Source of the DNA: an uncultured Chloroflexia bacterium | GTDB taxonomy: Bacteria > Chloroflexota > Anaerolineae > Anaerolineales > Anaerolineaceae | NCBI GenBank assembly: GCA_963804865.1 | Contig: CAWDSH010000001.1 | Span: forward strand, 466,977 to 530,976 | Direction of reading: 5' to 3' | DNA length: 64,000 bases | In this document: positions 3,746-24,647 of the stretch, in pieces | Layout: every line of letters starts with the position of its first letter | How positions within the stretch are numbered: the first letter of the stretch is position 1 | Notes under the pieces: model-generated | What the model was told of the DNA's origin: nothing | Database searches by the model: none | What the model saw: only the letters and a program-made list of their open reading frames with translations | Translations under genes and position numbers: made by a program

Positions 3746-4002
3746 TTATTTGACTTTCTTTCATCAACTGCAATATACAACGACCCCGGAAACCTTACCG
3801 AGGTCGCACAATTCTATTTTATCAGATTAATATAACAATGAATAGATTCCCGGAATTTGCTGTCGAATCTGATTTTTGCGAATCACATCTTTGTAGATAG
3901 TATGAAAAAGAATTCGAAGCGGCATCATGCAAGAAAGGAACGAAAAAAAATGAGAAGAGTTACCAGGAATACATTTCAACTGCCGCAGATATTAAAACAA
4001 GA

Positions 4003-8195: not shown

Positions 8196-10311
8196 TCAAG
8201 GCAATCTCGCTGCAGGATCACCAAAAAGCAGATAAGTTAGGAGCACATCCTTATCTTTGGCATTGGTGATGATCTGTTTCCCCTGAACTTGAACCCATAA
8301 CTCTCCAATCGTCAAATACTTGTTGGAAGCAATTTCTTCAGCTAGAGCTGTACTCAACTGATCCTGAGAGTCTGATAATGTAAGACTTGTAGGAGCAATA
8401 ATCGCGATAGGCCCGTTTTCATAAAGTAGGAGTTTTTCAGAAATTGAATCATATTCTGGATGAATAAAATACCCAGTCAGGCAGGTGAAATTTACAACAA
8501 GAGGCGCAAAATCCGCTGCCAACTCGTTTTCAAGGTCATCATCTCGTAATATATCTTCCCTCCCCCACATCTGAATGGCGCCATGACCAAAATAGATCAA
8601 CCAGTCATTAATTATTTTCGAAGATGACAGCTCTGGATGAGTCCAAACCGAAGCCGATCCTTGTCGTAGCTATTCCATCTTCTAGATTCGTATGACCGCA
8701 TGGCATCCGAGAATGATGCCACCGCATCGCCGAATTCACTCTCTGTTTCGGCTACAATCCCGATTTGAATATTTCTCTCTTTTCGATCGGAAATTGAGTT
8801 CTCATACACGATCAATTTACTAATATAGCCTTCAATTTCATCCGGTTCGCTGAATGGGATTCGACCCAGCGCCACGTCGGGCAGCCCATCACCATTTAAA
8901 TCAGTTAAAGGAATATCGGTAACTGTTTCACCGCCAAAAAGCGACGAATAAAACACTGGTGGCAACCAATTCTCCGATGTTTTTGAGATAAATCCCTTGA
9001 GATCGTAGCTCGAATCACCCACCAGCAATATATTGATCGGTCTAATCTTCCATTCCTGGTTTGCCCACTTCAGAAAGGATCTAACAGCCATCGGATCTGG
9101 TATTCCGTCATTAAAATTGTCATATATCGACTGCCATGACACAACAACTACAGTATGACCTTGCGACTGCCTGTATCCTACTAATCGAGAAAGAGAGTTC
9201 TTGATCTTCTCGGGAACGATAATCACGTAATCGCCACCCTCCATATCCTGAAACAATCCCGTGGCCTCTGCTAACCTCGAAATTTCCGGGTTGATCATAT
9301 CGTTAGTTTCCATAAGCAGATAATGATGACCTGGTACGGTTTTTATTGCGAGATTGTATGTTGAACTCTCATAGATACCGAGAAAGGTAGGAGTAGATAG
9401 ATCTGTCACGTCAAAGCTTAATACTTGTTCCATCAAGTCCTGTGATCAAATGTGACTCTTCCGTTGCAAAGAATTCGATTTGATTCTCCAAAGCTGATAA
9501 AAGTCTGGAGTAATTTAGATCTATAGCATCTAAAAATATCAAGTCGTTTGAAGAATCCGCAAATTTGGGACGTTCGATTATCAAGTGATTATCGTTTTCT
9601 TTGAACAGTTCGTTTGAAATGGTGATATTTGCTTGATATGACTCAATTCCCTCCCAGGATATTTCCTCAATTGGATGACCATTCAAGCTAATGGACAAAG
9701 AATGGTCTGGAGAATTCGGATTTGTCGTCCCCGACCAGAGATATAACGACATATCGATCTGCCCGGGTTGAATCAACGGTAAATCAAAGATAACTTCAAT
9801 GCTATTGGAAGGTGTAACAGTCTTCCAATACCAATGCGAGATCCCTTGCGCTTCCGGCACATACAAAAGGTTATTTTCTAAATGGATAACGGAACGACCC
9901 GTTTCATATCCCTGTAAATTCCCAGCATCACGGATAATGTCATCTCCTTGGATGATTTCCGGATGGATTGATACACCACCAACATTGTTTTTGAGAATAT
10001 AGACATTACCATTGAAATATGGACTTGAATTCTTCTCACCATAAAAAATGATACGTTTTTCGCTCTCAGTAAGCAGAATCGATCCAAAAAGGAATAGGTT
10101 TTTCATTATTGAATAGAGCCAGGTTTTCATAATCATCAACAATAAATCCATACTTTTTCAAAAGGGAATCTGGGATCGCATAAAATGATTCCTCATCAAT
10201 GGTGACTTTTAGTTCGTTGACTGTCTCATTGATCTTTTGTTCAGGGACACATGAGAACAATAGACTGGTAATTAGAAATACCCATATTTTGCGCCGAGTA
10301 TTTCGATTCAT
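8196..10311 (-). pseudogene. Gingipain-like peptidase C25 lipoprotein, shorter paralog of 11950..14985, split into four ORFs
   Basis: The fragments 10066..10311 (lipobox LLFSC), 9411..10151, 8612..9436 and 8196..8600 are collinear with the 1065-aa paralog. The His motif (IYFGHGA) and the Cys motif (NFTCLTGYF) are retained, as is the C-terminal FGDPAARLP (FGDPATQLRIP in the paralog). Confidence 0.75.
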
Positions 10312-11246
10312 GATTCATTCTCAGACTTTCTTCTCCTCTTTTTTATAAGCACCAATATGATATAAAGAAAAGCCGCCAGGAAAAGAACAATCGAGAAAGT
10401 AATCGCTATTTTTAGTAAAGAATCAGACTGTTTATTATAGTAAATTGGCGTGGGAGTTGGTGATAATCCAAGTGGGGGTATCTTTGTCAACGTTGCGGTT
10501 TTTGTTGGTGTCCCCGATGTCGCACTTGGTTCAAGGGACATGGTTATTGTTGATGTATTTGATGGTAAAGGTGATGCTGTTCTCGTCCAGGTGGATGATC
10601 GATAGATCACATTACTCAGTGTTCGAGTTTTTGTAACTGTCCGCGTTACTGTCTTGGTATGAGGTGTTGATGTGATCTTGGTTTGTGTTGGTGTTCTGGT
10701 TCTTGTGGTTGTTTTTGTTCTAGTTGCAGTTGAAGTCTGAGTAAGGGTGACTGTTCTTGACGGGGTTAAAGTCCATGTTGTTGTGCGTGTTGGTGTAAAA
10801 GTAAATGTTGCATTACGAGTTCTGGTCACTGTGGGCGTGAAGGTCCCAAATCCAAAAGTTGTGAAAATCGGTCCATAAAACTCGGATTGATTATTAAAAT
10901 CAACCACTTCAAGTTTATAGAAATATGTCTCACCAATTAGTGGAGTAGTATCTTCAAATGAATATTCTGCGCCTTCGATGCTTCCCCCAGTATGAGCAAT
11001 GAGATCATCGTGAATCCGCAAATAGGTCCCATTTTCTGCATTTGAGCGCAGCACATAGAATCCAAGAATATCAAACTCGGATGCCGTGCCCCAATTGATC
11101 AGAATACTACCTGTTCCTGGCTCAGCGGTGAAATAGGTAAGTGTAACTGCAGCTTGGACAACACCTGGTAGGATAAACAACATCCCAATAATTGCACCCA
11201 GCAGTAATAGCCGGAAAAGTCTAGTCAGCAGGCGTTTTATCGGCAA
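10308..11246 (-). CDS. Secreted, C-terminally anchored protein: signal peptide, FN3/Ig-like beta-sandwich, long Thr-rich linker, TM helix and basic tail
   Basis: TTG start. Signal peptide RLLLLGAIIGMLFILPGVVQA. Beta-sandwich pattern INWGTASEFDILGFYVLRS..YSFEDT..YFYKLEVVD. C-terminus IAITFSIVLFLAAFLYIILVLIKKRRRK. Confidence 0.7.
   Translation of the reverse strand: MPIKRLLTRLFRLLLLGAIIGMLFILPGVVQAAVTLTYFTAEPGTGSILINWGTASEFDILGFYVLRSNAENGTYLRIHDDLIAHTGGSIEGAEYSFEDTTPLIGETYFYKLEVVDFNNQSEFYGPIFTTFGFGTFTPTVTRTRNATFTFTPTRTTTWTLTPSRTVTLTQTSTATRTKTTTRTRTPTQTKITSTPHTKTVTRTVTKTRTLSNVIYRSSTWTRTASPLPSNTSTITMSLEPSATSGTPTKTATLTKIPPLGLSPTPTPIYYNKQSDSLLKIAITFSIVLFLAAFLYIILVLIKKRRRKSENES
10449..10844 (-). 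repeat. Low-complexity coding region with alternating Thr (TxTxT, TRT/TPT/TKT) of about 130 codons
   Basis: TFTPTVTRTRNATFTFTPTRTTTWTLTPSRTVTLTQTSTATRTKTTTRTRTPTQTKITSTPHTKTVTRTVTKTRT... This is a compositional repeat, not an exact tandem repeat. Confidence 0.8.
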
Positions 11247-11524
11247 CTATCCCTGCTTTTTGCAAATGCTTTATAAAACTATCTGTTTCGATTAATGCTT
11301 TATCCGGACTTACATCAAATTCCTGGTAAATGATATCTGCGATTTCCGTTCACGGAACGCTGGCTATTGATCAATTGCCAAATTCTCGTTCCAACTTCAT
11401 TCAGGACTTTTACTTTGCCTTTATCAGGAATAACGATAATAGCGCCATCATCCACCGGCTCACCAATGACATCAACGCAGAGCTGGGGTACAAACGAATA
11501 GTCATTGTGTGTCTCTTTTTTCAT
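11221..11524 (-). pseudogene. PqqD-family (RRE-type) peptide-binding protein of about 100 aa, with one 1-nt frame disruption near 11350 (possibly an assembly indel)
   Basis: ORF 11315..11524 reads ..DDGAIIVIPDKGKVKVLNEVGTRIWQLINSQRSV. The next frame continues TEIADIIYQEFDVSPDKALIETDSFIKHLQKAGIV to a TAG at 11221. This fits the PqqD pattern (LN.tg..iW.li.g.rsv.eI...i...y.v......D...Fi..L...Giv). The ATGA start overlaps the upstream S26 gene. Confidence 0.75.
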
Positions 11525-11934
11525 ATGATTTCTTTACCAGTCAAGCGTCTATAGTTCAGAAATAATACAAAATAAATTCTTCCGATAATTGTTAAAATAA
11601 AATTCACTCCAGGAAAAATCCAATCATATAATTTGCTTTTTTTATCAATTGAGATCAATGTTCCAATAATTTCGCTGGAGGAAATTGATGCATCCGAATA
11701 TTTTTGATTATCACCCTTGGAAAAATAACGATTTTCAAATTTTCCTATGATCCGGTGCAAAAGAAGTCCACCTGGTTTTTTTATCAATACGATATTGCCA
11801 ATATTATAGGTTTTTCGTTCCCGAAAATCGATCAACACCCAATCATTATGTTTCAATAGAGGTAACATGCTCTGCCCTACCACCTTAAACCGGGCGTGAT
11901 CAACCTTCACTTCGGGGCGTGATTGGGTTTTCAA
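11521..11934 (-). CDS. S26/S24-family serine peptidase (SipW/archaeal-type signal-peptidase fold) with no N-terminal TM segment and one C-terminal TM helix
   Basis: VVGQSMLPLL (Ser box), LLLHRIIG (His box) and FSKGDNQKYSDAS (GDN..D box). The C-terminal hydrophobic segment is WIFPGVNFILTIIGRIYFVLFLNY. Confidence 0.65.
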   Translation of the reverse strand: MKTQSRPEVKVDHARFKVVGQSMLPLLKHNDWVLIDFRERKTYNIGNIVLIKKPGGLLLHRIIGKFENRYFSKGDNQKYSDASISSSEIIGTLISIDKKSKLYDWIFPGVNFILTIIGRIYFVLFLNYRRLTGKEII

Positions 11935-11949
11935 ATTCAGGCCTTACAA

Positions 11950-14900
11950 CTAATTCTTAACAAATGGAAAGAAGATTTTATTATTCAGGGTGGCAGGGAT
12001 GCGCAATTGGGTCGCCGGATCACCAAATATCGTATACGAATTGATGATCGAGTAATCAATACCGCTCCCAAACAGATTTAGCTTGGCTCCAAGCACCGCA
12101 CTCCCTAGAGTGTTCCCATTCGTTTGGGTTATTTGATCGAAAAATCCTCGAAGAAGCCAATCATGTTGATCGCTGGTGCCAAAACCTGTAGGAGAAAATG
12201 CTGCCACTGCTCCACCAGCCTCTCTTTTAAGAAAATTCTCTGCCAGACTTATTGTTGCTGAGGTTTTGTCGGCATAGCTCCAATAGCCATCAAGACACGT
12301 AAGAGAAAAAATGACAGGCAACTCACCCAGGTTAGACAATGATGCAACATCGCTATTATAAAAGAAACGAGAGTTGTAACCCCATCCATTGACTCCGCCA
12401 TGACCATTATATAGAACTACAGAAACTCCGTTATTGATACCATTTATCAAGTCTTCTCTGGCTTCAGGACAAGCCGCACCAGAACTACAGGGATAATCGG
12501 GTAAATATATCTTTTGAAAATCCATCCCAAGCGAAGAATAATCCGCGAGAAAGGAATCCATTTCTGTTGTGAAATCGCCGGCCTCATCCGGGAAATAGGC
12601 AGAAGCGATCATCCGGTTTTGCCAGGGATAATCCACGGGGTTGATGGGAATATTTTCATACGAAATGATCTTGTCAATCACATCAGACAATTCCTCTGTT
12701 GTATTGACTGGGATGCGGCCAATCAATAGATCAGGAAGCGGGTCATCGCCATCTACTGCAGCAAGAAGGCTGGAGCTATCCACTTCGCCCTGGATTTCAT
12801 CCACCCACGCCAGGTTGGGTGGCATATAGATCGGCGAAGTTCCATATATATCAGGATTGTATCCTTTAAAATTCCAATGACCGTCGCCTATAAGAACAAT
12901 GTAGGTCGGAGCTGGTGAACGCCATTCATGATAAGCGTAATCCAGGAAAGCATGAATGGCCGCCGGGATTTCAATCCCGTAGCTGAACTGATTGTAGATA
13001 TCATCCAGGTGCACGATCTGGCCGCGCAACCCCTGACTTATCCGGTGGTCAACCAAGCGTTGAACCTGTGAATCGAAAATGGGATCACTGATGGCAACAA
13101 AATCTGCACCATTGAAATGCGAATGAAGATCTGCTCCGTTGTACAAGTCGATCTGGATTGGATTCAATATCTTCTCTTCCCCTGCCAGATAATACCTGGT
13201 ATCGAGGGTTGGTGAGGTTTGGAATGTGACTTTCCCAGAATCAATCACACCATTTTGGATTCTCTTGGGAAGCAAGGGATTTGTGATATCAAGTACAAAA
13301 ATGCCCGGTGAAACGAAATTTTCTACCTCGAATTCCAATTCACCGTCCTGCGGTGAGCGAAAATTCAATTCATCATTCAATGCTCTAAAGAGACGGTCGT
13401 ATTCAACTTCAAACCAGTTGAAGAGAATTGCATCCGAGCCTTGACCCACATCCGTTAGCACTTCAAACTTCAGATTGTTCGCTCCTGGAAGTAACGAAGA
13501 ATTGCTCACATTTCCTGAAAATTGGTGAGATATCTTCCCATCCCACGTTGAATCTTCAATCAATGTGCTTGTGTTGATCCAGAACCGTGTGTGGTGGTCC
13601 GGATTTACATTCGGATTATTAGCTTGAGCATTAACTTCTCCATAGATGGTGGCATCCCCTCCGCTGTTAGCAACATCAAATAACTCAACTGGAAATTCCA
13701 TTGAAATTGAACTACTTGTGGATAATTCATTCCAAAACCAAGTATCTTCAGAGTTAAAGTGGTAAGTTCGCCAACGCATGTTTTGTTCAGAGTGTGATAT
13801 TGACCGGAAATATGACGGAGGAGTCAGGCTATCATTGATCGGGTTCCCGTCGATTTCTTCCATAAATATTGCTTTACCATTAAAATCAATCCAATATACA
13901 TTTTCATCAGTATATTTTTCAACCATCGTGGCATTGAAGGTTGGTCTCCAACCGGTTGAATAATCGTTCCACCAGGTATCTTCCTGGTTAAATAATTCTG
14001 CTAAATGCTGCCCGTAAAGTTTTTGACCATAGAAGAGGAAGGCTTCCCCTGCTTCAAACAAACCATTCTCATTTTCGTCTTCCGGCAGGATGGCTACACT
14101 CTCTCCCTGACAAGAAAAACCGACTGAAGTATATGGGATGTCAGAATATGTGATTCCAGCTGTTGTCAGATCTTCAAATGTAACCCTGTATAGCCCATCT
14201 TGATTGACCTTCAACTTCACTTTTTCGATAAAGCTCTCAGACATCGCATTCACTTCGAAAGATTCTGAAGTGACATCACCAATCCGCCAATCTTTTGCAG
14301 CAGCATAATTAACCAGCTCCTGGGCAAGAGCCATATCAAATGGGGAATTCTCCAATTCCTTATGGTTTATTGACATCGATGCCACGTCATCAAAATCTAT
14401 TCGGATGCGAATAGTTCGATTCCAAAGCAATTCACCGGTTACAGGATTATATTGAAAAGGAAATACCTGCAGGTTGGCTATGCGATGTTGCCTAACAATT
14501 GAATCAGAACTGCCACTTACCAGCGCGTCTGGGAAAAACGCATTACGTTGATAAATGTTTTCGTCTTCAATCCTGGAATAATCAACTGCGGGAAATTCAT
14601 TTTGATAAGATATGATCTCGCTTTCAGATGGTAAAATCCTGAATTCTCCCGGCAATGAAACAAACTCACCGCTCGTTACTGATATTCGATAACCACCTGT
14701 CTGAGGTAGACCAAAAGATAGGCTTTTTACAGGCAACTCAGGGGAACCTGCCGATGAAAAAGTATTGGTACCCGGAATTGTTAATCGTTGATAGACAATT
14801 CCATCAATGTCCATTGATTCGAGCTCATAATTGGGAAAATGAAATTCAAGAGTAAAACCCGAACTGTCTGATTTCAATAATTCAAATAATCCGGAATCCT

Positions 14901-14985
14901 TATTATCAGATTGGGAATCAAAAGTTAGAGGAAAACACCCCAGTCCTAATATTAAGATCAGGCTAAATAGTAATCTCCAGGTCAT
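11950..14985 (-). CDS. Large secreted gingipain-like cysteine peptidase (C25 propeptide plus C25 catalytic domain)
   Basis: Start trimmed to MTWRLLFSLILILGLGC. The 15147 extension would overlap the upstream gene. Propeptide-like DIDGIVYQRLTIPG..AGSPELPV. Catalytic-domain block YIVLIGDGHWNF. His motif VVLYNGHGGVNGW and Cys motif IFSLTCLDGYW. Confidence 0.8.
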   Translation of the reverse strand: MTWRLLFSLILILGLGCFPLTFDSQSDNKDSGLFELLKSDSSGFTLEFHFPNYELESMDIDGIVYQRLTIPGTNTFSSAGSPELPVKSLSFGLPQTGGYRISVTSGEFVSLPGEFRILPSESEIISYQNEFPAVDYSRIEDENIYQRNAFFPDALVSGSSDSIVRQHRIANLQVFPFQYNPVTGELLWNRTIRIRIDFDDVASMSINHKELENSPFDMALAQELVNYAAAKDWRIGDVTSESFEVNAMSESFIEKVKLKVNQDGLYRVTFEDLTTAGITYSDIPYTSVGFSCQGESVAILPEDENENGLFEAGEAFLFYGQKLYGQHLAELFNQEDTWWNDYSTGWRPTFNATMVEKYTDENVYWIDFNGKAIFMEEIDGNPINDSLTPPSYFRSISHSEQNMRWRTYHFNSEDTWFWNELSTSSSISMEFPVELFDVANSGGDATIYGEVNAQANNPNVNPDHHTRFWINTSTLIEDSTWDGKISHQFSGNVSNSSLLPGANNLKFEVLTDVGQGSDAILFNWFEVEYDRLFRALNDELNFRSPQDGELEFEVENFVSPGIFVLDITNPLLPKRIQNGVIDSGKVTFQTSPTLDTRYYLAGEEKILNPIQIDLYNGADLHSHFNGADFVAISDPIFDSQVQRLVDHRISQGLRGQIVHLDDIYNQFSYGIEIPAAIHAFLDYAYHEWRSPAPTYIVLIGDGHWNFKGYNPDIYGTSPIYMPPNLAWVDEIQGEVDSSSLLAAVDGDDPLPDLLIGRIPVNTTEELSDVIDKIISYENIPINPVDYPWQNRMIASAYFPDEAGDFTTEMDSFLADYSSLGMDFQKIYLPDYPCSSGAACPEAREDLINGINNGVSVVLYNGHGGVNGWGYNSRFFYNSDVASLSNLGELPVIFSLTCLDGYWSYADKTSATISLAENFLKREAGGAVAAFSPTGFGTSDQHDWLLRGFFDQITQTNGNTLGSAVLGAKLNLFGSGIDYSIINSYTIFGDPATQLRIPATLNNKIFFPFVKN

Positions 14986-14995
14986 ATGAGCCCAG

Positions 14996-16420
14996 TTAGA
15001 TCTTTCGTTTGAAGAATTGACTGGCAAAAACAACAACGAGGAAGAAACCGAGAACAGGGAAGATGTATCGTTGACTTGGGGAAGACTGCGCAGTGAAATC
15101 AACCAGTGTAAGAGCAGTGGGATTCGTCCCCTCAAAACTACCGGCAACGAATGGAGTTCCCCCCAAATCCACGTATGTTAAGCCGGATATTTCGAGATCG
15201 TTTAAGCCGTAATGGTTAAGGGTTGCGCTTGGCAAAGTCGCAGCATTCACCATCGGCCAGCATGTTTTTAAAGTCGGCGAACTGGCACATAGATCGAATT
15301 GGGTGTCATTTGTTGGAGATGCTGGAATAAAGAATACATCCCTTTTTGCCCAAACTTCTTCATGACACGCAGTATCAAGGTCGACGGGCAAAACGATCGT
15401 ATAAGGATCACTGGAGGTCGCTTCAATCGTGAAGAAATCATAGTAATCCGAGCACATACTTGATACCCAGGGTTCAATCCCATTACCAAATGGAGCATTA
15501 CTGGGTGATCGACCAAAGGTCACAATCACGTTAATTCCATCTGAACCCCCTGTCAATTGCGCAATCCCAAGTGTTGCACCTAATGGAGCAATTCCTGCAT
15601 TCCAATCGACAATTTCTGCTCCCAACCTTGTATTCCACCAGGAATCACTCGGAGGGTCAACTTCATATGTTGGCATAGTGGCATCATCATACACACCCCA
15701 CCAATTATGGGATAAATTAAAAATCCCATAACTCTGAGCACGTAATGAATATGTAAAACCAATGAAATTATTGGCAAAAGCTAAAATAGAACCCTCTGCG
15801 TCATAATTGATTGGTGAAGCTGATGCAATGCCTGTTGAATTAAAAGTGTTGCCAACGATCAAAACATCTCCAATCCCACCATCATCAATAAGACCAATAT
15901 AACAGCCATCAATATTTGTATTTGTGATAGCCAGATTTCCATCCGGTTCTACGCCATCAGCAATCATGCGAATTGCAGATATATTATCATTAAGGCAAAC
16001 AATCGTTAAATCCCTGAAAGCAAAATCTCCCTCCATGATTTCAAAAATTGGAACTGTTGCATTAGTTCCCGTTGCTATTATTTGACCTTCACCATTTAGG
16101 CTGTCTATCGTCAGCGGATATTCACCAAGATAATTATCATCAATATCCTTTGGTCCACTTCGAATGGGAGTTGTCGAATTATCAATATAATTGGTGCCAA
16201 TAAAAGTCAACGTCGAAGCGGAGCTATCCACGAGATTATCGATAGCTGTAAAGATATCCGTATAACAGGGAATCAGAGATGGATTCGCATCACATGTTGC
16301 TTGATCTGGAGCTACATAAACATGATCGTAAATCTGCATCCTGGGAGCCGCAGATACATGTTGTGAAAATAATAAAAAGATAAAACAAGTGATGATTAAT
16401 ATTCTTATTGTAGTCTTCAT
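14996..16420 (-). CDS. Secreted right-handed beta-helix (pectate-lyase/NosD-like) repeat protein with a C-terminal TM anchor
   Basis: Start trimmed to MKTTIRILIITCFIFLLFSQHVSA (signal peptide) after an AAGGGG Shine-Dalgarno sequence. Repetitive I.N..I.G segments (LAITNTNIDGCYIGLIDDGGIGDVLIVGNTF). C-terminus YIFPVLGFFLVVVFASQFFKRKI. Confidence 0.6.
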   Translation of the reverse strand: MKTTIRILIITCFIFLLFSQHVSAAPRMQIYDHVYVAPDQATCDANPSLIPCYTDIFTAIDNLVDSSASTLTFIGTNYIDNSTTPIRSGPKDIDDNYLGEYPLTIDSLNGEGQIIATGTNATVPIFEIMEGDFAFRDLTIVCLNDNISAIRMIADGVEPDGNLAITNTNIDGCYIGLIDDGGIGDVLIVGNTFNSTGIASASPINYDAEGSILAFANNFIGFTYSLRAQSYGIFNLSHNWWGVYDDATMPTYEVDPPSDSWWNTRLGAEIVDWNAGIAPLGATLGIAQLTGGSDGINVIVTFGRSPSNAPFGNGIEPWVSSMCSDYYDFFTIEATSSDPYTIVLPVDLDTACHEEVWAKRDVFFIPASPTNDTQFDLCASSPTLKTCWPMVNAATLPSATLNHYGLNDLEISGLTYVDLGGTPFVAGSFEGTNPTALTLVDFTAQSSPSQRYIFPVLGFFLVVVFASQFFKRKI

Positions 16421-16435
16421 GCTTACCCCTTTGCC

Positions 16436-16475
16436 AAAAACAATCTGGGTCCGTCGTTCCTGACAAAACCCAGAG
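16436..16475 (-). terminator. Hairpin plus short T-run between the small ORF and the beta-helix gene (possible attenuator)
   Basis: On the minus strand, ctctgggt..(17-nt loop)..acccagat is followed by tgtttttgg. It lies about 35 nt after the small-ORF stop and about 16 nt before the next start. Confidence 0.3.
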
Positions 16476-16510: not shown

Positions 16511-16684
16511 TCAAGGATTACTGTCATTATCCAATCCTAATGGATCCAATGGATCCACTCCCAAAGGTGAACCTAGAGGGACGGACCCGGCGCGAACTTC
16601 CAGGTCCATTTCGATCATGATCCTGGGAGTCTCATATTTCTTCTTTTTGTTATCAAGCTCATCCATATCGATACTTTTCATCAT
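16511..16684 (-). CDS. Untracked 57-aa ORF, a candidate leader-core precursor-like peptide
   Basis: My translation is MMKSIDMDELDNKKKKYETPRIMIEMDLEVRAGSVPLGSPLGVDPLDPLGLDNDSNP. It falls below the 60-aa cut-off of the ORF track. It fills an otherwise empty 290-nt gap and has its own promoter-like element. Whether it is coding is unproven. Confidence 0.45.
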   Translation of the reverse strand: MMKSIDMDELDNKKKKYETPRIMIEMDLEVRAGSVPLGSPLGVDPLDPLGLDNDSNP

Positions 16685-16707
16685 CAATAGTTTGGTGATT
16701 AAATTGG

Positions 16708-16736
16708 ACTATAGCATACTTCAATATCGGTTGCAA
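16708..16736 (-). promoter_or_regulatory. Sigma70-like promoter in front of the 57-aa ORF
   Basis: On the minus strand, TTGCAA-N17-TATAGT, with the -10 element about 24 nt upstream of the ATG at 16684. Confidence 0.4.
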
Positions 16737-16772
16737 GCAATCGTACTTTACTGTTGGTTTACAATAATCCCC

Positions 16773-18077
16773 TCAATTATTAGTAATAATTGACCAAAAA
16801 GTGTTATCTTTCCGAAAACCCAGCTCATATGAGCTGCAGGCATCGGCAATTTCCTCGCACCTCTTTATAACAAGTGGTAAAAGCGTTTTTTCAGAAGTCA
16901 ATACTGGAGTGTTGGCCAGTAATGCAGCTATTGCATAATTCTTCCCCATTTTCTTAATATTGACCTTTAGTGATTTATTAATTTGATAAATTCCTTTAAT
17001 CTTGGCTCCATTATTTTGAGGAATCTCCCTTGTTGGATTCCAGAAAGGTGTTGAAAAAGCGCTCCAGCTTCTTCCAATAGGTTTGGTTGCAACGAGGTCA
17101 TCACTCAATACTTGATCTCCAGCATCGATATATTTTGTAATCGTTGTTTTTCCACTCCCGGAATGACCCATGAAAATATAAGCTTTATCATTCCGCTTAA
17201 CCCCTGCAGAATGAAGCAATAATCCTCCTGATCGGAAGATGAGAATTGAGAAGATTATTCTCATTAATATCTCCAAATCTGCATTGCCTAAATCCTTATG
17301 GGCGATAATATCTCCGGTTTTTCTAGAAAAATCGATTTTTACTTTTATCTTTTTTGTTTGATAGTGCAATACTTTTATGTCATGTGAAATCAATAATGGA
17401 ATTTCAGAAAACTCATTTTGATTTGCATCTAAGATTCCAATGTGCAAATCAATTCGATCCGGGGTATCCAGAATAAAATTCTTGTATCTTTGGATCAAAT
17501 CAGAAAAATGATTTTCTTCATATAGAAATTCGAGGTTGCATCCACCGATGGAAAAGACCTTGCTTTCTTTTGTTTTTCGACCAATCTTCTGAAAATATCT
17601 TCTCCCAGCGTATATGAAGAAAAGCAGCATACAAATAATGCCTGGAAAAAATAAGTAACTGCTCCATGACATTGCTTTCACAGGCACAGGACCGAATAGG
17701 TTCCCCCTTGACCCTTCACTCCTGACTTCTTCTAAATAATATTGGTACTCACGACCATTAATTAGGTGATTGTCCGTAAATGTGTAGTTTTCCCCAGTAA
17801 ATGCACCTCCCCTTTTTTCAATGAACGTGATCAATTGTCTATTATGCTCTACTTCATCGAACCGGAAAATATTGAAACCGGTGATACCCACCTCGGATAC
17901 TGTTTCCCATTTCACTTCGACTATGGCATTATCGTTACATATCAGGGATAGAGATAGAAAAATAGTTCCAATGAGTAATACCAACCATTGGAGATAGGAT
18001 CTCAAAACTCTATTGAGCATAAAAAGATTATACACAATCACATCCCTGGATAATTCCAAGTAGCATATTACTTGCAT
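16773..18077 (-). CDS. Bitopic membrane protein: TM, extracytoplasmic FN3/Ig-like domain, TM, cytoplasmic HPr-kinase-C-like P-loop kinase domain
   Basis: P-loop block GGLLLHSAGVKRNDKAYIFMGHSGSGKTTITKYI..VLSDDLV, typical of HprK-C/HprK-related kinases. TM1 is WLVLLIGTIFLSLSLI and TM2 is YLFFPGIICMLLFFIYAG, followed by RRYFQKIGRK. An alternative start exists at 18020 (MLNRVL..). Confidence 0.7.
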   Translation of the reverse strand: MQVICYLELSRDVIVYNLFMLNRVLRSYLQWLVLLIGTIFLSLSLICNDNAIVEVKWETVSEVGITGFNIFRFDEVEHNRQLITFIEKRGGAFTGENYTFTDNHLINGREYQYYLEEVRSEGSRGNLFGPVPVKAMSWSSYLFFPGIICMLLFFIYAGRRYFQKIGRKTKESKVFSIGGCNLEFLYEENHFSDLIQRYKNFILDTPDRIDLHIGILDANQNEFSEIPLLISHDIKVLHYQTKKIKVKIDFSRKTGDIIAHKDLGNADLEILMRIIFSILIFRSGGLLLHSAGVKRNDKAYIFMGHSGSGKTTITKYIDAGDQVLSDDLVATKPIGRSWSAFSTPFWNPTREIPQNNGAKIKGIYQINKSLKVNIKKMGKNYAIAALLANTPVLTSEKTLLPLVIKRCEEIADACSSYELGFRKDNTFWSIITNN

Positions 18078-19808: not shown

Positions 19809-20869
19809 ATCCCAATTCCAGGGGCGTGATATCCACAAAAGTTAGAGTCGCCCCCACAGTGTCAATTATTATTCCCACGTATAACGAAGAAGCGTTTATA
19901 GATAATTGCATGGATTCAATATTGAATCAGGATTTTCCAGGAATAATTGAAATTTATATAATTGACGGTGATTCCAATGACGGAACGAAGATAAAACTTG
20001 AAGATTGGTTGAAAAAGGATTCCAGAATAAAACTTATTAATAACCCCCACCGATATCAAACAAGTGCCTTGAACCTTGGTATCAAAAAAAGTAAGGGGGA
20101 CATCATTGTTCGCATTGACGCTCATGCAGTATATGCATCCAATTATGTAAGTGAATGTATTTTTGCTTTTGAGCGATCCCACGCTGGTTGCGTAGGTGGT
20201 GGGGTTAACCTCCTCCCCGGTGAAGATTTTTTATCAAAATTGATTGGACTTGTACAAAAGAATCTACTTGGTTCCGGCATCGCCAAATTCAGGAGACAAT
20301 CCTATGAAGGGTATGTCGATACGGTTTGGCCGGGTGCTTATCACCGTTCTATTTTTGAGAAGGTTGGGTATTTTCGTGAATACTTGACCCGTACAGAGGA
20401 TCTGGATTTTCATGCTCGTATGCGGCAATTGGGTTATACCATCTATCAAACCCCACGGATAAAACCATATTACCACCCGAGAACCAGTCTTTTATCCCTA
20501 TTTCATCAATACTTTGGAAATGGCCAACAGGTCATTACAACATTGGTGGTGAATGCCGAAGCGATCTCCTTGCGACATCTTGTTCCATTTATTACGAGCA
20601 CTTTATTCATTCTTGTTTTGATTCTTGGAATTTGGGATAAAACTGGAATGCCCATTTCCTGTGGATTTGTAGGATTTTATTTACTATTGCTTCTTTTGGC
20701 ATCAATATCAATTGGGATAAATAATGGGATCAAATATTTTTTCGCATCGCCCCTCATTTTCGTAGTAATTCACATTAGCTATGCACTTGGTTCATGGAGC
20801 GGATTATTCTTACTATTGAGAAATTGTTTTAATGTGAATAGAGTTTTTAAAGAAAACTTTGCGAAATGA
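19805..20869 (+). CDS. Family 2 glycosyltransferase with a C-terminal membrane domain
   Basis: VSIIIPTYNEEAFI..IIDGDSNDGT and TEDLDF motifs, with 3-4 C-terminal TM helices. The start overlaps the upstream stop by 4 nt. Confidence 0.85.
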   Translation: MNPNSRGVISTKVRVAPTVSIIIPTYNEEAFIDNCMDSILNQDFPGIIEIYIIDGDSNDGTKIKLEDWLKKDSRIKLINNPHRYQTSALNLGIKKSKGDIIVRIDAHAVYASNYVSECIFAFERSHAGCVGGGVNLLPGEDFLSKLIGLVQKNLLGSGIAKFRRQSYEGYVDTVWPGAYHRSIFEKVGYFREYLTRTEDLDFHARMRQLGYTIYQTPRIKPYYHPRTSLLSLFHQYFGNGQQVITTLVVNAEAISLRHLVPFITSTLFILVLILGIWDKTGMPISCGFVGFYLLLLLLASISIGINNGIKYFFASPLIFVVIHISYALGSWSGLFLLLRNCFNVNRVFKENFAK

Positions 20870-21990
20870 TTACACCTGATCAGCTCGTAATCCCTATTAG
20901 TAAATGGACAGCTTCAATTGCAGAAGCCAGTAAAGATGGTATATATTCACAAAAACCACAATTTCGCCCCCTCCTGGCTTCGACTTGGTATCTCAATAAA
21001 AGGAGCTTGCTAGAAACTAAAGAAGCCGACATATGCGAGCAAACATATTTGCAAAATCGCTCCCGCTGGTTACGGTTCGAAAAGACTATAACTAATTCAA
21101 TTAATATTGTGTCATGCTCAAGAATAGAACTTGTTTTATTGAAAGGACTGGATTTTTTAACAACTTTATATCCGGATACAGGGATTAGGCATCTTGGTGA
21201 TGTGGATATTTTACTAAGACCGAATGATTTAATAAGAGCTGCCACTATTTTATTGAAAAACGGTTTTTTACTGGTTGGTATTAACGATAAGAAAGAAGCC
21301 ATTAAATGGCTAAAGATCTCTAAAGATATTCCAAGTGAACTTGTGCTTTTCCATAGATCAGGTCTTTATTTCGAATTACATCAGCATCTCGTTTCATCAA
21401 ATTGGTTTGAAGATGTATATCCAATTGATTTGGATCGTATTTGGGAAAATTCGGTTTTAAACAAATTCCTAAATGAACAATCGAACAATATTCGGGTATT
21501 ATCCCGCGAAGATAACATTGCTTACCTCATTCTCCATTTAGCGAATCATGGCATGGGATATCAAGCGCTTCATAATTATTTGGATTTGGATCTGATAATC
21601 CGAAATTCCCATAATGAACTAGATTGGTCCCTAATTCGGGAAAATATTATTTCATGGCGATTGTCAACTGCAGCAAACTTTATTTTTTCCTTCTGTTCTA
21701 AATACCTTGACACTCCTTTGCCGGATGATTTTCTTGATAGTTTGCCGCATCATTTATGGTCGAGGTTGGCAGTATTTCTTCTCTTAAAACCAGTGGATCT
21801 AATCACTGGTCGAGAGACATTGGGTGTAAAGTATCCCACACTGGTAAAAGTTGCAGTTATTGAACGATTCAGTGATCAAGTAAAAACGATTGTTAATGGA
21901 ATACTTCCTAAAAAAATACCTTTTCAACATCCAAGGAAGTCACTAAGCCATTGGTCAAATATGCTTAGGGCAATCAGGCGAGGAGATTAG
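20866..21990 (+). CDS. Uncharacterised nucleotidyltransferase family protein (NTP_transf_5/PF14907-like)
   Basis: LLKGLDFLTTLYPDTGIRHLGDVDILLRPNDLIRAATILLKNGF matches the family core (LKG..l....Y.....R...DiDlLv......a...L...GF). The start overlaps the upstream stop by 4 nt. Confidence 0.65.
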   Translation: MITPDQLVIPISKWTASIAEASKDGIYSQKPQFRPLLASTWYLNKRSLLETKEADICEQTYLQNRSRWLRFEKTITNSINIVSCSRIELVLLKGLDFLTTLYPDTGIRHLGDVDILLRPNDLIRAATILLKNGFLLVGINDKKEAIKWLKISKDIPSELVLFHRSGLYFELHQHLVSSNWFEDVYPIDLDRIWENSVLNKFLNEQSNNIRVLSREDNIAYLILHLANHGMGYQALHNYLDLDLIIRNSHNELDWSLIRENIISWRLSTAANFIFSFCSKYLDTPLPDDFLDSLPHHLWSRLAVFLLLKPVDLITGRETLGVKYPTLVKVAVIERFSDQVKTIVNGILPKKIPFQHPRKSLSHWSNMLRAIRRGD

Positions 21991-23642: not shown

Positions 23643-24647
23643 TCCATTATTGGGAAAACGCGTACTGGTTTCGGGTGCGGGTGGTTTCATAGGCAGCTCT
23701 CTCGTTGATCAACTTGTAAAAAGCGGAGCGAAGGTCAGGGCATTTGTCAGATATAACAGCCGCGGAGACCCTGGTCTTTTGCATTATTCCTCCAAGGATA
23801 TTCTTAATAAAATTGAAATCATAGCAGGAGATATCAAGGACTATCATGCTGTTTTAAAAGCATGTGAAGACATGGAATATGTTTTTCATCTCAGCGCATT
23901 CATTTCCATCCCTTATTCTTACATTCACCCTTTTGAAGTTATTGAGGTAAATGTCCTGGGGACAACAAATATTCTCTTGGCATGTAAAGAGTATAGGATT
24001 GAAAAAATCATACATACCTCAACCAGCGAGGTTTATGGGACTGCGCAATCCATTCCTATGAATGAAGAACATCCGCTAAAGGCACAATCTCCTTATGCAG
24101 CTAGTAAGATTGGTGCGGATAAAATCGTGGAGAGTTTCTACTGCTCTTATGGACTACCGGTTATTACTCTTCGACCATTTAATACCTACGGACCACGTCA
24201 ATCCCTTCGAGCGGTCATTCCATCGATAATCACCCAGGCACTTCGGGGGAAAAATATAAGAGTTGGAAATCTGGAGAGTATCAGGGATTTCACCTATATC
24301 ACTGACACCGTTGATGGCTTTATTCAAGCAGCCTCCACCGCGATTCCATTTGGCAGCACGATCCATCTTGGAACAGGTACTGCAGTCACCATTGCTGAAT
24401 TAATAAATAAGAATAGAAACAATTTTTGGCAGCAAATTGAAAGTTGAAGTTGATTCCAAGTTACGTACGTCCACCCCATTCCGAAGTTGGGCGTCTGATA
24501 TCAGATAATCAATCCGCAAAAAGATTGATGAATTGGCTACCCAAGATTGATTTGAATCAAGGATTGGTTGAAACCATCAAATGGTATAAAGAACATCCGG
24601 ATTTTTATGAGAATTCAGTCGTTTTTCACATAAAGGATAGATTATGA
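23620..24647 (+). pseudogene. NAD-dependent sugar epimerase/dehydratase (extended SDR), with a frame change near 24420-24447
   Basis: GKRVLVSGAGGFIGSSL, STSEVYG and YAASKIG (YxxxK) are in ORF 23620..24447. The conserved C-terminus (RPPHSEVGRLISDNQSAKRLMNW..GLVETIKWY) is in the next frame, 24444..24647. Confidence 0.85.

What the first reader, a model, noticed from the sequence alone, without database searches (positions are those of the whole stretch)
16511..16684. Hidden 57-aa ORF with a YxxP leader-like motif and a Pro/Gly/Asp-rich tail
The ORF is missing from the track because it is shorter than 60 aa. It translates to MMKSIDMDELDNKKKKYETPRIMIEMDLEVRAGSVPLGSPLGVDPLDPLGLDNDSNP. The N-terminal half is charged and contains KKYETPRI. 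This matches the YxxPx(L/I) core that lasso-type RRE/PqqD proteins recognise in leader peptides. The C-terminal half is a distinct Pro/Gly/Leu/Asp-rich segment with a DPL-DPL repeat and a near-terminal Asp-Ser (..DNDSNP). That recalls the phosphorylated C-terminal Ser of kinase-associated lasso precursors. Arg-Ala at EVR/AGS is a plausible cleavage boundary, and some clan-CD C25 enzymes are Arg-specific. The ORF has its own TTGCAA-N17-TATAGT promoter and is followed by a hairpin before the next gene. That architecture is typical of over-expressed precursor genes.
Basis: partly seen in the sequence, partly recalled or inferred. Interest (0 to 1): 0.8.

Follow-up and report, generated by a model that had tools for sequence, protein, structure and literature searches.

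The report
Chloroflexota phospho-peptide (LPP-like) precursor gene
The 57-codon ORF is a real, strongly conserved gene for a modified-peptide precursor, one of more than 100 relatives in Chloroflexota, and it most resembles the "linear polyphosphorylated peptide" system described in 2026 and thought to be confined to Bacillota.

Summary
The ORF exists on the minus strand (16684..16511) and translates exactly as reported. It is under strong purifying selection: the last 33 codons have no amino-acid change against 22 synonymous differences in a relative whose flanking genes are about 65% identical.

It belongs to a family of at least 106 short ORFs, almost all in Chloroflexota. The shared pattern is (R/K)K-x-Y-x-x-P-x-[IV]-[IV]-x-E-x-x-L-E-[T/V]-R-A-G-[S/T]-P, followed by a short Pro/Gly/Leu/Asp-rich acidic tail.

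In related loci the gene lies just downstream of an HprK/PEPCK-fold kinase and just upstream of a PorU-like C25 peptidase. A PqqD-type peptide-binding protein is often nearby, and sometimes an archaeal-type signal-peptidase-like S24 protease or an NTP_transf_5 gene. Several loci, including this one, sit in polysaccharide gene clusters.

This parts list matches the linear polyphosphorylated peptides of Bacillota (PMC13381572), where the kinase phosphorylates core Ser3.

Supported:
- leader motif
- kinase link
- promoter
- hairpin
- frameshifted PqqD

Not supported:
- a lasso peptide (no cyclase)
- the near-C-terminal Ser as acceptor; the conserved hydroxyl residue is Ser34

Unresolved: the cleaved bond and the protease.

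Verdict: a new variant of a known kind, of moderately high interest.

The parts
16511..16684 (-). Precursor peptide gene (57 aa plus stop). The start may be ATG 16684. That position is ATG/ATG/GTG in the three species. An internal Met7 was used by the gene caller in L007.
16592..16684 (-). Putative leader (residues 1-31), ending L-E-V-R31. The first roughly 13 residues are poorly conserved.
16619..16636 (-). Y17-E-T-P20-R-I22, the YxxPx[IV] RRE-binding-type motif. Lys at Y-2 matches the K-18/Y-16 pair of LppA.
   Evidence: PMC13381572
16514..16591 (-). Putative core A32-P57 (AGSVPLGSPLGVDPLDPLGLDNDSNP). It is identical in amino acids in three species despite saturated synonymous change.
16583..16585 (-). 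Ser34 codon (core position 3 if cleaved after Arg31), the predicted phospho-acceptor.
   Evidence: S/T in 104 of 106 family members. 31 of 106 cores have no other S/T. Analogy to LppA S3 and BsfA S3.
16708..16736 (-). Promoter-like TTGCAA-N17-(TG)C-TATAGT.
16744..16764 (-). Invariant 21-nt element TTGTAAACCAACAGTAAAGTA (GTAAA-N6-GTAAA) just upstream of the -35 hexamer. Possible regulator site.
16436..16474 (-). Conserved stem-loop plus U-tract between the precursor gene and the next gene (terminator or attenuator-like).
   Evidence: The stem is invariant and the loop differs in L001.
16773..18077 (-). Membrane-anchored kinase. Layout: TM, Fn3-like ectodomain, TM, then a ScmC/HprK/PEPCK-fold P-loop domain with Walker A GHSGSGKTT.
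11221..11524 (-). PqqD-family RRE gene, interrupted by a 1-nt frameshift near 11346-11350.
11521..11934 (-). S24/S26 peptidase of archaeal/ER signal-peptidase type (Ser22 in GQSM, His60 in HRI, GDN75) with a C-terminal TM helix. Candidate leader peptidase.
   Evidence: LppS precedent
11950..15147 (-). C25 cysteine peptidase, PorU/gingipain-like, with a propeptide domain. The likely true start is Met55, at about 14985. Catalytic His (NGHGG) and Cys (SLTCLDG) are retained.
14996..16420 (-). 474-aa secreted protein with a C-terminal TM helix and a basic tail. Found only in close relatives. Function unknown.
10308..11246 (-). 312-aa protein: signal peptide, Fn3-like domain, Thr-rich linker, C-terminal TM anchor.
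20866..21990 (+). NTP_transf_5 nucleotidyltransferase in the divergent polysaccharide operon. Candidate counterpart of LppN/PsmN.
   Evidence: PMC8498205; PMC13381572

Best explanation
The ORF encodes the precursor of a linear, phosphorylated (possibly phospho-glycosylated) ribosomal peptide. It is a Chloroflexota counterpart of the Bacillota linear polyphosphorylated peptides (LPPs).

**Proposed steps; all are inferred and none was tested biochemically here**
1. The gene is transcribed from its own conserved promoter. A conserved stem-loop with a U-tract lets only part of the transcription continue into the downstream genes.
2. The discrete PqqD-type RRE (11524..11221) binds the leader through Y17-x-x-P20-x-I22.
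3. The RRE presents the peptide to the membrane-anchored HprK/PEPCK-fold kinase (18077..16773). The kinase phosphorylates Ser34 in the invariant R-A-G-S.
4. The NTP_transf_5 enzyme (20866..21990) may extend the phosphate, as in pseudomycoidin.
5. The leader is removed within L-E-V-R-A-G. The enzyme is either the archaeal-type signal-peptidase-like S24 protease (as LppS does) or the extracytoplasmic C25 peptidase encoded next to the precursor, or both. The favoured bond is R31|A32.
6. This releases a 26-residue acidic Pro/Gly/Leu/Asp-rich peptide that acts at the cell envelope or polysaccharide layer.

**What is shown**
- Coding selection on the ORF.
- The family and its conserved positions.
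- Gene linkage across relatives.
- The fold and family of each neighbouring protein.
For: **Coding**
- No amino-acid change against 22 synonymous differences over 33 codons.

**Family**
- 23 peptide hits at E<1e-3 in 1.84 billion representative proteins.
- A degenerate DNA scan found at least 119 sites against the roughly 17 I estimated by hand from the pattern's information content, not by a shuffle or control. Of these, 106 are short ORFs with the same layout, almost all in Chloroflexota MAGs.
- Positions that the scan pattern did not impose are nevertheless conserved:
  - S/T at +3 in 104 of 106
  - Pro at +4 in 79
  - L/I/V at +5 in 86
  - T/V/I at -2 in 100
  - basic residues at -18 and -17

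**Linkage**
- All 40 ScmC-domain ORF hits, in 37 of 106 loci, lie upstream on the same strand (median gap 367 nt).
- 48 of 50 C25 ORF hits, in 33 of 106 loci, lie downstream on the same strand (median gap 202 nt).
- PqqD occurs in 26 loci, S24 in 10 and NTP_transf_5 in 6, although each slice is only 8 kb.
- Tandem precursor copies occur in L100 and L126.

**Neighbouring proteins**
- Kinase: the AF2 model has pLDDT 89. Foldseek matches PEPCK at 2e-8 and HPr kinase 1knx at 1e-5. NCBIfam gives ScmC, HprK_rel_A and HprK_rel_B.
- RRE: ScmD 9e-12, lasso_PqqD_Bac 3e-9, TbiB1 3e-4.
- S24: the best NCBIfam hit is archaeal-type signal peptidase I, 1.3e-9.
- NTP_transf_5: 113 bits.

**Precedent**
- The LPP core gene set is SpI-like peptidase, RRE, HprK-like kinase, NTP transferase and a transporter, inside capsule loci. 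Ser3 is polyphosphorylated and cleavage is RRE-dependent (PMC13381572).
- BsfK phosphorylates core Ser3 in a B1-dependent way, and I/V is tolerated at -2 (PMC10368454).
- A kinase plus a nucleotidyltransferase gives a phosphoglycosylated Ser (PMC8498205).

**Same leader, different core**
- L008 carries the same leader on a Cys-rich core, next to ScmC, PqqD and a radical SAM/SPASM enzyme. This is the modular leader/core logic of RiPPs.
Against: - There is no biochemical evidence and no transcript or peptide data.
- Every NCBIfam match scores far below its curated cut-off: ScmC 26 bits against 125, ScmD 45 against 100, signal peptidase I 38 against 52.
- The leader consensus differs in detail from the LPP motif YxxPxVLxHQxIxFETxxS.
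- No MsbA-like exporter, and no other ABC exporter, was found among the ORFs scanned, which cover most of the first 45 kb of the window.
- The PqqD gene is frameshifted here. This may be an assembly error, since at least three other genes in the window are split.
- The S24 gene was detected in only 10 loci and NTP_transf_5 in only 6.
- 56 of the 106 family loci showed none of ScmC, PqqD, C25 or S24 in their 8-kb slice. A few of these 56 are probably chance matches, and many have the peptide at a slice end.
- The core is more conserved than is usual for RiPP cores.
- The near-invariant Arg at -1 suits a gingipain-type protease better than a signal-peptidase-type one.
Confidence: 0.65

Rival explanations
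1. The C25 (gingipain/PorU-like) peptidase, not the S24 enzyme, is the dedicated Arg-specific leader peptidase. It would cut R31|A32 outside the cell after export, like NisP for nisin.
For: - The C25 gene follows the precursor on the same strand for 48 of 50 C25 ORF hits (33 loci), with a median gap of 202 nt.
- In the pattern-independent HMM hits, Arg at -1 is more than 90% conserved; one member has Lys.
- C25 retains its catalytic His and Cys. Arg-gingipain RgpB is among its best structural-database relatives, at 8e-14.
- An N-terminal hydrophobic segment suggests that it is secreted.
Against: - The closest relatives of this C25 are PorU-type sortases (NF033707 6e-70; 6za2 5e-16). Those are not Arg-specific.
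- The S1 Asp163 of RgpB aligns with Thr, although that part of the alignment is weak.
- L008 has a C25 gene, but its precursor has A-L-A at the junction and no Arg.
- The characterised analogue uses the signal-peptidase-like enzyme.
- Some ScmC-PqqD-precursor loci show no C25 in the slice.
Confidence: 0.3
2. It is a lasso peptide precursor. The N-terminal Ala or Gly of the core would be cyclised onto an Asp or Glu by a cyclase encoded elsewhere.
For: - The leader is lasso-like: YxxPx[IV] with T/V/I at -2 (PMC10368454).
- The RRE matches lasso B1 models.
- 59 of 106 family cores have Asp or Glu at positions 7-9.
Against: - The window core has its first acidic residue at position 13.
- No Asn-synthetase-like cyclase or B2 peptidase was found among the window ORFs of at least 400 aa, in the roughly 8-30 kb neighbourhood scanned, or in the related loci examined.
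- In typical loci ScmC, the precursor and C25 are contiguous.
Confidence: 0.04
3. It is a functional small protein that is not post-translationally modified. Examples would be a secreted signal, or a regulatory or chaperone-like partner of the C25 peptidase or of envelope proteins. The PqqD and kinase genes would then serve another substrate.
For: - The 26-residue C-terminal part is unusually well conserved.
- Many copies lie away from the enzymes, next to giant surface proteins.
- No exporter was identified.
Against: - The best-conserved block is exactly an RRE-type motif plus a fixed S/T.
- Linkage to ScmC and PqqD is tight and directional.
- Tandem copies occur.
- A leader swap onto a Cys-rich core is seen beside a radical SAM enzyme.
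Confidence: 0.1
4. It is a transcription-attenuation leader ORF. Its translation would control read-through of the downstream hairpin into the C25 operon, and the peptide itself would be irrelevant.
For: A short ORF is followed by a conserved terminator-like hairpin ahead of a long operon.
Against: - Purifying selection acts on the amino-acid sequence.
- The family is conserved at phylum level, yet its position varies: after PqqD, as an orphan, or in tandem.
- The stop codon lies 36 nt before the stem.
Confidence: 0.02

Closest known systems
Linear polyphosphorylated peptides (LPPs) of Bacillota: LppA precursor with LppB (RRE), LppK (HprK-like kinase), LppS (SipW-like signal peptidase I), LppN (NTP transferase) (Nat Commun 2026, PMC13381572)
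   Same: - The precursor has a K-x-Y-x-x-P-x-[V/I] leader motif.
- A fixed Ser lies 17 residues after the Tyr (18 in LppA).
- The locus has a discrete PqqD-type RRE, an HprK-fold kinase, an archaeal/ER-type signal-peptidase-like protease with Ser, His and Asp motifs, and a PF14907-type nucleotidyltransferase.
- There is no macrolactam cyclase.
- The locus is embedded in a polysaccharide locus.
   Different: - The phylum is Chloroflexota, whereas the paper calls LPPs restricted to Bacillota.
- The leader consensus is different (…E-x-x-L-E-[T/V]-R-A-G-S rather than …H-Q-x-I-x-F-E-T-x-x-S).
- The core is short (median 19 aa), conserved and Pro/Gly/Asp-rich, whereas LPP C-termini are highly variable.
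- The kinase is fused to two TM helices and an Fn3-like ectodomain.
- A large PorU-like C25 peptidase is the precursor's immediate neighbour.
- No MsbA-like transporter was found.
- Sequence matches to curated models are all below their cut-offs.
Phosphorylated lasso peptides (paeninodin, pseudomycoidin, Bsf from Bradymonas)
   Same: - YxxPx[L/I/V] leader with T, I or V at -2.
- B1-type RRE.
- HPr-kinase homologue; in Bsf it phosphorylates core Ser3 with the help of B1.
- An associated nucleotidyltransferase.
   Different: - There is no C cyclase and no B2 peptidase.
- The window core lacks Asp or Glu at positions 7-9.
- The Tyr is at -15 rather than -17 if cleavage follows Arg.
SynChlorMet cassette (ScmC, ScmD/PqqD, ScmE/ScmF radical SAM/SPASM; TIGR04248-04251)
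   Same: ScmC and ScmD are the best NCBIfam matches for the kinase-like protein and for the repaired PqqD. A related metagenomic locus (L008) combines ScmC, PqqD and a radical SAM/SPASM enzyme with a precursor that carries the same leader.
   Different: - There is no radical SAM enzyme in the window.
- Scores are far below the equivalog cut-offs.
- The core here has no Cys.
PorU, the type IX secretion sortase, and the gingipains (peptidase family C25)
   Same: The neighbouring 1065-aa protein has the C25 propeptide and catalytic domains with the His/Cys dyad. PorU is its best structural-database and NCBIfam relative.
   Different: - The organism is a Chloroflexota bacterium. I looked for no type IX secretion genes or CTD-type cargo, so their absence is untested.
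- The score is below the PorU cut-off (236 bits against 420).
- Its substrate here is unknown.

Membership tests
LPP-type RiPP (PMC13381572) | Precursor leader with a [Y/W]xxPx[L/V/I] RRE-binding motif | tested here: met
   Y17-E-T-P20-R-I22 in the window. Y and P are invariant and I/V is present in the HMM-derived set and in all 106 scan members (there the pattern imposed these positions).
LPP-type RiPP (PMC13381572) | Ser at core position 3 that is (poly)phosphorylated | tested here: inconclusive
   S/T is fixed three residues after the invariant Arg in 104 of 106 members, and the search pattern did not impose this. Neither the cleavage site nor phosphorylation can be tested with these tools.
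LPP-type RiPP (PMC13381572) | Discrete PqqD-type RRE in the cluster | tested here: met
   Gene at 11524..11221. It is frameshifted in the window. PqqD is present in 26 related loci.
LPP-type RiPP (PMC13381572) | HprK-like kinase | tested here: met
   Walker A GHSGSGKTT. The AF2 model (pLDDT 89) matches PEPCK at 2e-8 and HPr kinase 1knx at 1e-5. NCBIfam gives HprK_rel_A/B and ScmC below their cut-offs. Orthology to LppK was not tested.
LPP-type RiPP (PMC13381572) | Archaeal-type (SipW-like) signal peptidase I as leader peptidase | tested here: inconclusive
   The best NCBIfam hit is sigpep_I_arch, 1.3e-9, but at 38 bits against a cut-off of 52. Ser22, His60 (HRI) and GDN75 motifs were read from the sequence. 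The AF2 model failed (pLDDT 49). A homologue was found in only 10 related loci.
LPP-type RiPP (PMC13381572) | Uncharacterised NTP transferase | tested here: met
   PF14907 at 2e-32 for 20866..21990. The gene is adjacent to the kinase in L007, L009, L021, L041, L049, L103 and L121.
LPP-type RiPP (PMC13381572) | MsbA-like ABC transporter | tested here: not met
   No ABC exporter was found among the window ORFs scanned with Pfam.
LPP-type RiPP (PMC13381572) | Leader consensus YxxPxVLxHQxIxFETxxS | tested here: not met
   The family consensus is YxxPx[IV][IV]xExxLE[TV]RAG[ST]. The layout is similar but the residues differ, and the Tyr-to-Ser distance is one residue shorter.
Lasso peptide | Asn-synthetase-like macrolactam cyclase and a B2 (transglutaminase-like) peptidase in the cluster | tested here: not met
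   None was found among the ORFs scanned in the window or in the related loci examined.
Lasso peptide | Asp or Glu at core position 7, 8 or 9 | tested here: not met
   In the window core AGSVPLGSPLGVD the first acidic residue is at position 13. Asp or Glu at 7-9 is present in 59 of 106 relatives.
SynChlorMet cassette | ScmC and ScmD together with two radical SAM/SPASM maturases (ScmE, ScmF) | tested here: not met
   ScmC scores 26 bits against a cut-off of 125 and ScmD 45 bits against 100. No radical SAM gene lies near the locus.
Peptidase C25 / PorU-type sortase (neighbouring gene) | C25 catalytic domain with the His/Cys dyad and a propeptide domain | tested here: met
   PF01364 at 1.6e-75 and PF08126 at 3.8e-27. 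His (NGHGG) and Cys (SLTCLDG) align with the RgpB catalytic residues. The PorU equivalog cut-off is not reached (236 bits against 420).

The most novel reading that the evidence does not exclude
The mature phospho(glyco)peptide might not be a diffusible product. It could instead be the amine-bearing acceptor or adaptor of a PorU-like C25 transpeptidase. After leader removal, its free N-terminus would be joined to surface proteins whose C-terminal TM-plus-basic-tail signals are cut off. Its Ser34 phosphate would be extended by the NTP transferase into the locus-encoded polysaccharide. The result would be a ribosomal peptide linker between envelope proteins and exopolysaccharide in Chloroflexota. 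The evidence does not exclude this. The precursor and C25 genes are adjacent. Fn3-like ectodomains occur on the kinase and on anchored Thr-rich proteins. The locus is embedded in polysaccharide genes, and orphan copies lie next to giant surface proteins. Nothing shows it directly.
Probability: 0.08. Interest if true: 0.9.

Novelty: new variant of a known kind. Interest (0 to 1): 0.62.

Why it matters
LPPs were described only in 2026. Their final structure and role are unknown, and they were reported as restricted to Bacillota.

A family of more than 100 members in Chloroflexota with the same enzymatic logic would show that kinase-dependent linear phospho-peptides tied to polysaccharide loci are an ancient, cross-phylum system. 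The Chloroflexota version has a conserved short core, a membrane-anchored kinase and a gingipain/PorU-type protease.

It offers a second, simpler model: a 26-residue core with one conserved acceptor Ser. That could help find the missing final product and function.

It also provides a candidate precursor for ScmC/PqqD/radical-SAM cassettes of the SynChlorMet type. As far as I recall from the TIGRFAM descriptions, their substrate was never identified.

For annotation, neither Pfam nor NCBIfam has a model for these peptides, and the public gene call for the partner signal-peptidase-like gene lacks its catalytic Ser.

Tried and rejected
**Searches that gave nothing**
- Pfam and NCBIfam scans of the peptide found no family.
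- Rfam over the whole window gave no match, so the conserved upstream DNA is not a known RNA.
- A profile search of PDB sequences with the peptide family found nothing.
- A sequence search of the kinase domain against the PDB gave nothing significant. Only the fold search worked.
I replaced it with a hand-built degenerate DNA pattern.
- Literature searches for SynChlorMet/ScmC and for C25 with PqqD in Chloroflexi found nothing relevant. The Zhu 2016 and Hegemann 2018 papers are not held.

**Structure predictions that failed**
- The AF2 model of the S24 peptidase from a 4-sequence alignment was unusable (pLDDT 49), so I ran no fold search on it.

**Ideas considered and rejected**
- Lasso membership: no cyclase and no acidic residue at core positions 7-9.
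- C-terminal Ser as acceptor: not conserved.
- An attenuation leader peptide: selection acts on the amino-acid sequence and the gene's position varies.
- The overlapping plus-strand ORF 16617..16793 as the real gene: substitutions are synonymous in the minus-strand frame.

**Left undecided**
- Arg specificity of the C25 enzyme. RgpB Asp163 aligns with Thr, but only in a low-confidence part of the alignment.
Full report
**1. The observation**

The ORF is real but lies on the minus strand. The ATG is at 16684 and the stop at 16513-16511.
- The promoter-like TTGCAA-N17-TATAGT is at 16736..16708, with a TG before the -10 hexamer.
- The number of such sites in the region is not above the shuffled expectation (7 found, 8.8 expected), so the pattern alone proves nothing.
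- A stem-loop at 16474..16444 (dG about -17 kcal/mol, z = -2.65) is followed by UUGUUUUU. It sits between the ORF and the next gene.
- The exact 57-aa product is already a called, unnamed protein in public gene calls from a 1.73-Mb contig (P0001). "Hidden" therefore applies only to a 60-aa track.

**2. Is it a gene?**

Two other species carry it: L001-L006 (P0002) and L007.
- Their flanking genes are about 65% (L001) and about 80-90% (L007) identical to the window.
- The N-terminal 13 or so residues diverge. From E25 to P57, all 33 residues are identical.
- Window versus L001 shows 22 synonymous differences over those codons. These include the six-fold-codon switches Ser TCC->AGT and Arg CGC->AGA. 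Synonymous sites are saturated (pS about 0.9).
- That pattern means purifying selection on the protein in the minus-strand frame.
- The 59 nt that hold the promoter and a 21-nt element (TTGTAAACCAACAGTAAAGTA, 16744-16764) are 86% identical to L001. The neighbouring spacers are 26-39% identical.
- The hairpin keeps its stem while its loop changes.

**3. The family**

- A profile search of 1.84 billion representative proteins gave 23 hits at E<1e-3. All but one are 37-73 aa long; the exception is a 111-aa call that carries the motif at its C-terminus.
About 17 would be expected by chance, a figure I estimated by hand from the pattern's information content, not from a shuffle or control.
- Of these, 106 are short ORFs with complete 3' ends. 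Nearly all come from Anaerolineae/Anaerolineales, Thermoflexales, Caldilineaceae and Herpetosiphonaceae MAGs. About a dozen hits are chance matches inside long genes such as mutS.
- The pattern did not fix the following positions, yet they are conserved:
  - S/T at the third residue after Arg, 104 of 106
  - Pro next, 79 of 106
  - L/I/V next, 86 of 106
  - T/V/I before Arg, 100 of 106
  - R/K at -18 and -17
  - H/Y at -8
- The part after R-A-G-S is 11-34 aa long (median 19). It is rich in Pro (16%), Gly (15%), Leu (13%) and Asp (10%), with a mean net charge of -2.3. It often contains DP[LIF] (56 of 106).
- 31 of 106 cores have no Ser or Thr other than the fixed one. Only 5 of 106 end in Ser.
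- Neither Pfam nor NCBIfam has a model that matches the window peptide.

**4. Neighbourhood**

In the window the minus-strand order is:

| Coordinates | Product |
|---|---|
| 18077..16773 | TM, Fn3-like ectodomain, TM, P-loop domain |
| 16684..16511 | precursor |
| 16420..14996 | secreted 474-aa protein |
| ~14985..11950 | C25 peptidase |
| 11934..11521 | S24 peptidase |
| 11524..11221 | PqqD |
| 11246..10308 | Fn3-like, Thr-rich, C-terminally anchored protein |
| 10151..8196 | fragments of a second C25 gene |

A polysaccharide operon runs divergently. It encodes Wzz/CpsD-type kinase, GT2, NTP_transf_5 at 20866..21990, a sugar transferase, sugar-nucleotide enzymes and an LCP protein.

Evidence for the individual proteins:
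- **P-loop domain.** Walker A is GHSGSGKTT. Its AF2 model (pLDDT 89, pTM 0.88) matches PEP carboxykinase at 2e-8 and HPr kinase/phosphatase 1knx at 1e-5. The NCBIfam hits are ScmC, HprK-related kinase A and HprK-related kinase B, all far below their cut-offs.
- **PqqD.** The ORF is split by a 1-nt indel near 11346-11350.
- **Assembly quality.** At least three other genes in the window are also split. An indel-prone assembly is therefore as likely as a true pseudogene.
- **S24 protein.** Its best hit is archaeal-type signal peptidase I (1.3e-9). It shows Ser22 (GQSM), His60 (HRI) and GDN75. To my knowledge these are the marks of ER/archaeal-type signal peptidases. LppS uses Ser29, His68 and Asp93.
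- **C25 protein.** It is closest to the type IX sortase PorU (NF033707 6e-70; 6za2 5e-16), then to Arg-gingipain (1cvr 8e-14). It keeps the catalytic His and Cys.

**5. Linkage across the family (8-kb slices only)**

- All 40 ScmC-like ORF hits, in 37 of 106 loci, lie upstream of the peptide gene on the same strand (median gap 367 nt).
- 48 of 50 C25 ORF hits, in 33 of 106 loci, lie downstream on the same strand (median gap 202 nt).
- PqqD is found in 26 loci, the Fn3-like domain in 36, S24 in 10, NTP_transf_5 in 6 and Wzz in 9.
- Two gene orders recur:
  - (NTP_transf_5)-(Fn3)-ScmC-precursor-C25-S24-PqqD-Fn3 protein
  - ScmC-PqqD-precursor
- Tandem precursor copies occur in L100 and L126.
- 56 of the 106 loci have none of ScmC, PqqD, C25 or S24 in the slice. 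A few of these are probably chance matches and many have the peptide near a slice end.
- Several of these orphans lie directly after giant surface proteins carrying RHS, SdrD_B or GEVED domains.
- For the MAGs that gave two hits, the second copy is usually cluster-linked (titles).
- A more distant locus, L008, reads ScmC-PqqD-radical SAM/SPASM-precursor-CBM-C25-Fn3-Rce1-like. Its 48-aa precursor has the same leader (VYEKPQVILERELEA; 16.3 bits against the family HMM) but a Cys-rich core. One leader on different cores, paired with different enzymes, is the modular logic of RiPPs.

**6. Comparison with what is known**

- A 2026 paper (PMC13381572) describes linear polyphosphorylated peptides in Bacillota.
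  - The clusters lie inside capsular polysaccharide loci.
  - Precursors carry YxxPxVLxHQxIxFETxxS.
  - LppK adds several phosphates to core Ser3.
  - LppS removes the leader only when the RRE presents it.
  - The final product and its role are unknown, and the authors state that LPPs are restricted to Bacillota. That paper does not mention Chloroflexota or C25.
- In the Bsf lasso system the HPr-kinase homologue phosphorylates core Ser3 in a B1-dependent way, and the leader has I or V at -2 (PMC10368454).
- In pseudomycoidin a kinase and a nucleotidyltransferase together give a phosphoglycosylated Ser (PMC8498205).
- The window locus has the LPP parts list except the transporter. It adds the C25 peptidase and the Fn3/TM fusion on the kinase. 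The leader consensus differs in detail. Tyr-to-Ser is 17 residues here, 18 in LppA and 19 in BsfA.
- Membership in the lasso class fails. There is no cyclase or B2 peptidase, and the window core has no acidic residue at positions 7-9.
- Membership in the SynChlorMet cassette fails. There is no radical SAM enzyme, and scores are below the cut-offs.

**7. Mechanism**

Inferred steps:
- The RRE binds Y17-x-x-P20-x-I22.
- The membrane-anchored kinase phosphorylates Ser34.
- The NTP_transf_5 enzyme may extend the phosphate.
- The leader is removed within L-E-V-R-A-G.

Three bonds are possible:
- **After Val30.** This is the T/V position and is analogous to F-E-T| in LppA.
- **After Arg31.** This gives Ser at core position 3 and T/V at -2, as in lasso and Bsf leaders. 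It would also suit an Arg-specific C25.
- **After Ala32.** This follows the classical -3/-1 rule, T/V-R-A|. L008 has A-L-A| at the same place.

I favour R31|A32 but cannot decide it, nor which protease acts. C25 might also act on other substrates, for example the co-encoded C-terminally anchored proteins.

**8. Verdict**

- It is wrong about the lasso kinship as membership and about the C-terminal Ser.
- The cleavage bond and the protease remain open.
- The finding is a new, phylum-wide variant of a recently described kind of RiPP, not a new category.
- All functional steps remain inferences from sequence, linkage and precedent.

Noticed in passing
window 11221-11524; 8196-10151; 23620-24647; 27932-29424: Four genes are split by frameshifts or stops: PqqD, a second C25 peptidase in at least 3 pieces, a sugar 4,6-dehydratase, and an FGGY kinase. 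This suggests an indel-prone assembly or local gene decay.
   Followed up: partly
window 16744-16764 (minus strand): The 21-nt element TTGTAAACCAACAGTAAAGTA, with a GTAAA-N6-GTAAA direct repeat, lies just upstream of the -35 hexamer. It is invariant in two other species and unique in the window. It may be a regulator-binding site.
   Followed up: partly
window 17640-17960 (within 16773-18077) and 10308-11246; 36-43 related loci: A domain of about 95 aa that looks Fn3-like from its sequence (no Pfam match, no fold search run) sits between two TM helices at the N-terminus of the kinase. It also occurs in a Thr-rich, C-terminally anchored protein. It is a recurrent, uncharacterised component of the system.
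   Followed up: partly
L008 1491-9296 (ENA ERZ27248288 k141_606235): The locus reads ScmC-PqqD-radical SAM/SPASM, followed by a 48-aa ORF (3784-3930) that has the same YEKPxVIxExELE leader and a Cys-rich core. CBM, C25, Fn3-like and Rce1-like genes follow. The 48-aa ORF is a candidate precursor for SynChlorMet-like cassettes.
   Followed up: partly
L031 5256; L043 2986; L069 ~3700; other 'orphan' loci: 56 of the 106 family loci have no ScmC, PqqD, C25 or S24 gene within the 8-kb slice. Several of these orphan copies sit directly after giant surface proteins with GEVED/SdrD_B, RHS or SdrD_B domains. MAGs that gave two hits usually also carry a cluster-linked copy.
   Followed up: partly
window 11521-11934 (minus strand): The public gene call for the S24/signal-peptidase-like protein is 115 aa (P0057). 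It starts at Met23 and so lacks the catalytic Ser22. The 137-aa form with a TTG start is conserved in a relative (P0058).
   Followed up: yes
window 14996-16420 and 10308-11246: Both secreted proteins end in a hydrophobic helix followed by a basic tail (…FFKRKI; …KKRRRKSENES). These resemble C-terminal sorting or anchor signals and lie next to a PorU-like C25 enzyme.
   Followed up: no
L025 173-2755: In a locus of the ScmC-PqqD-precursor type, two HtrA/DegP-like trypsin-PDZ proteases lie upstream. The 260-270-aa proteins after the precursor have no Pfam match.
   Followed up: no
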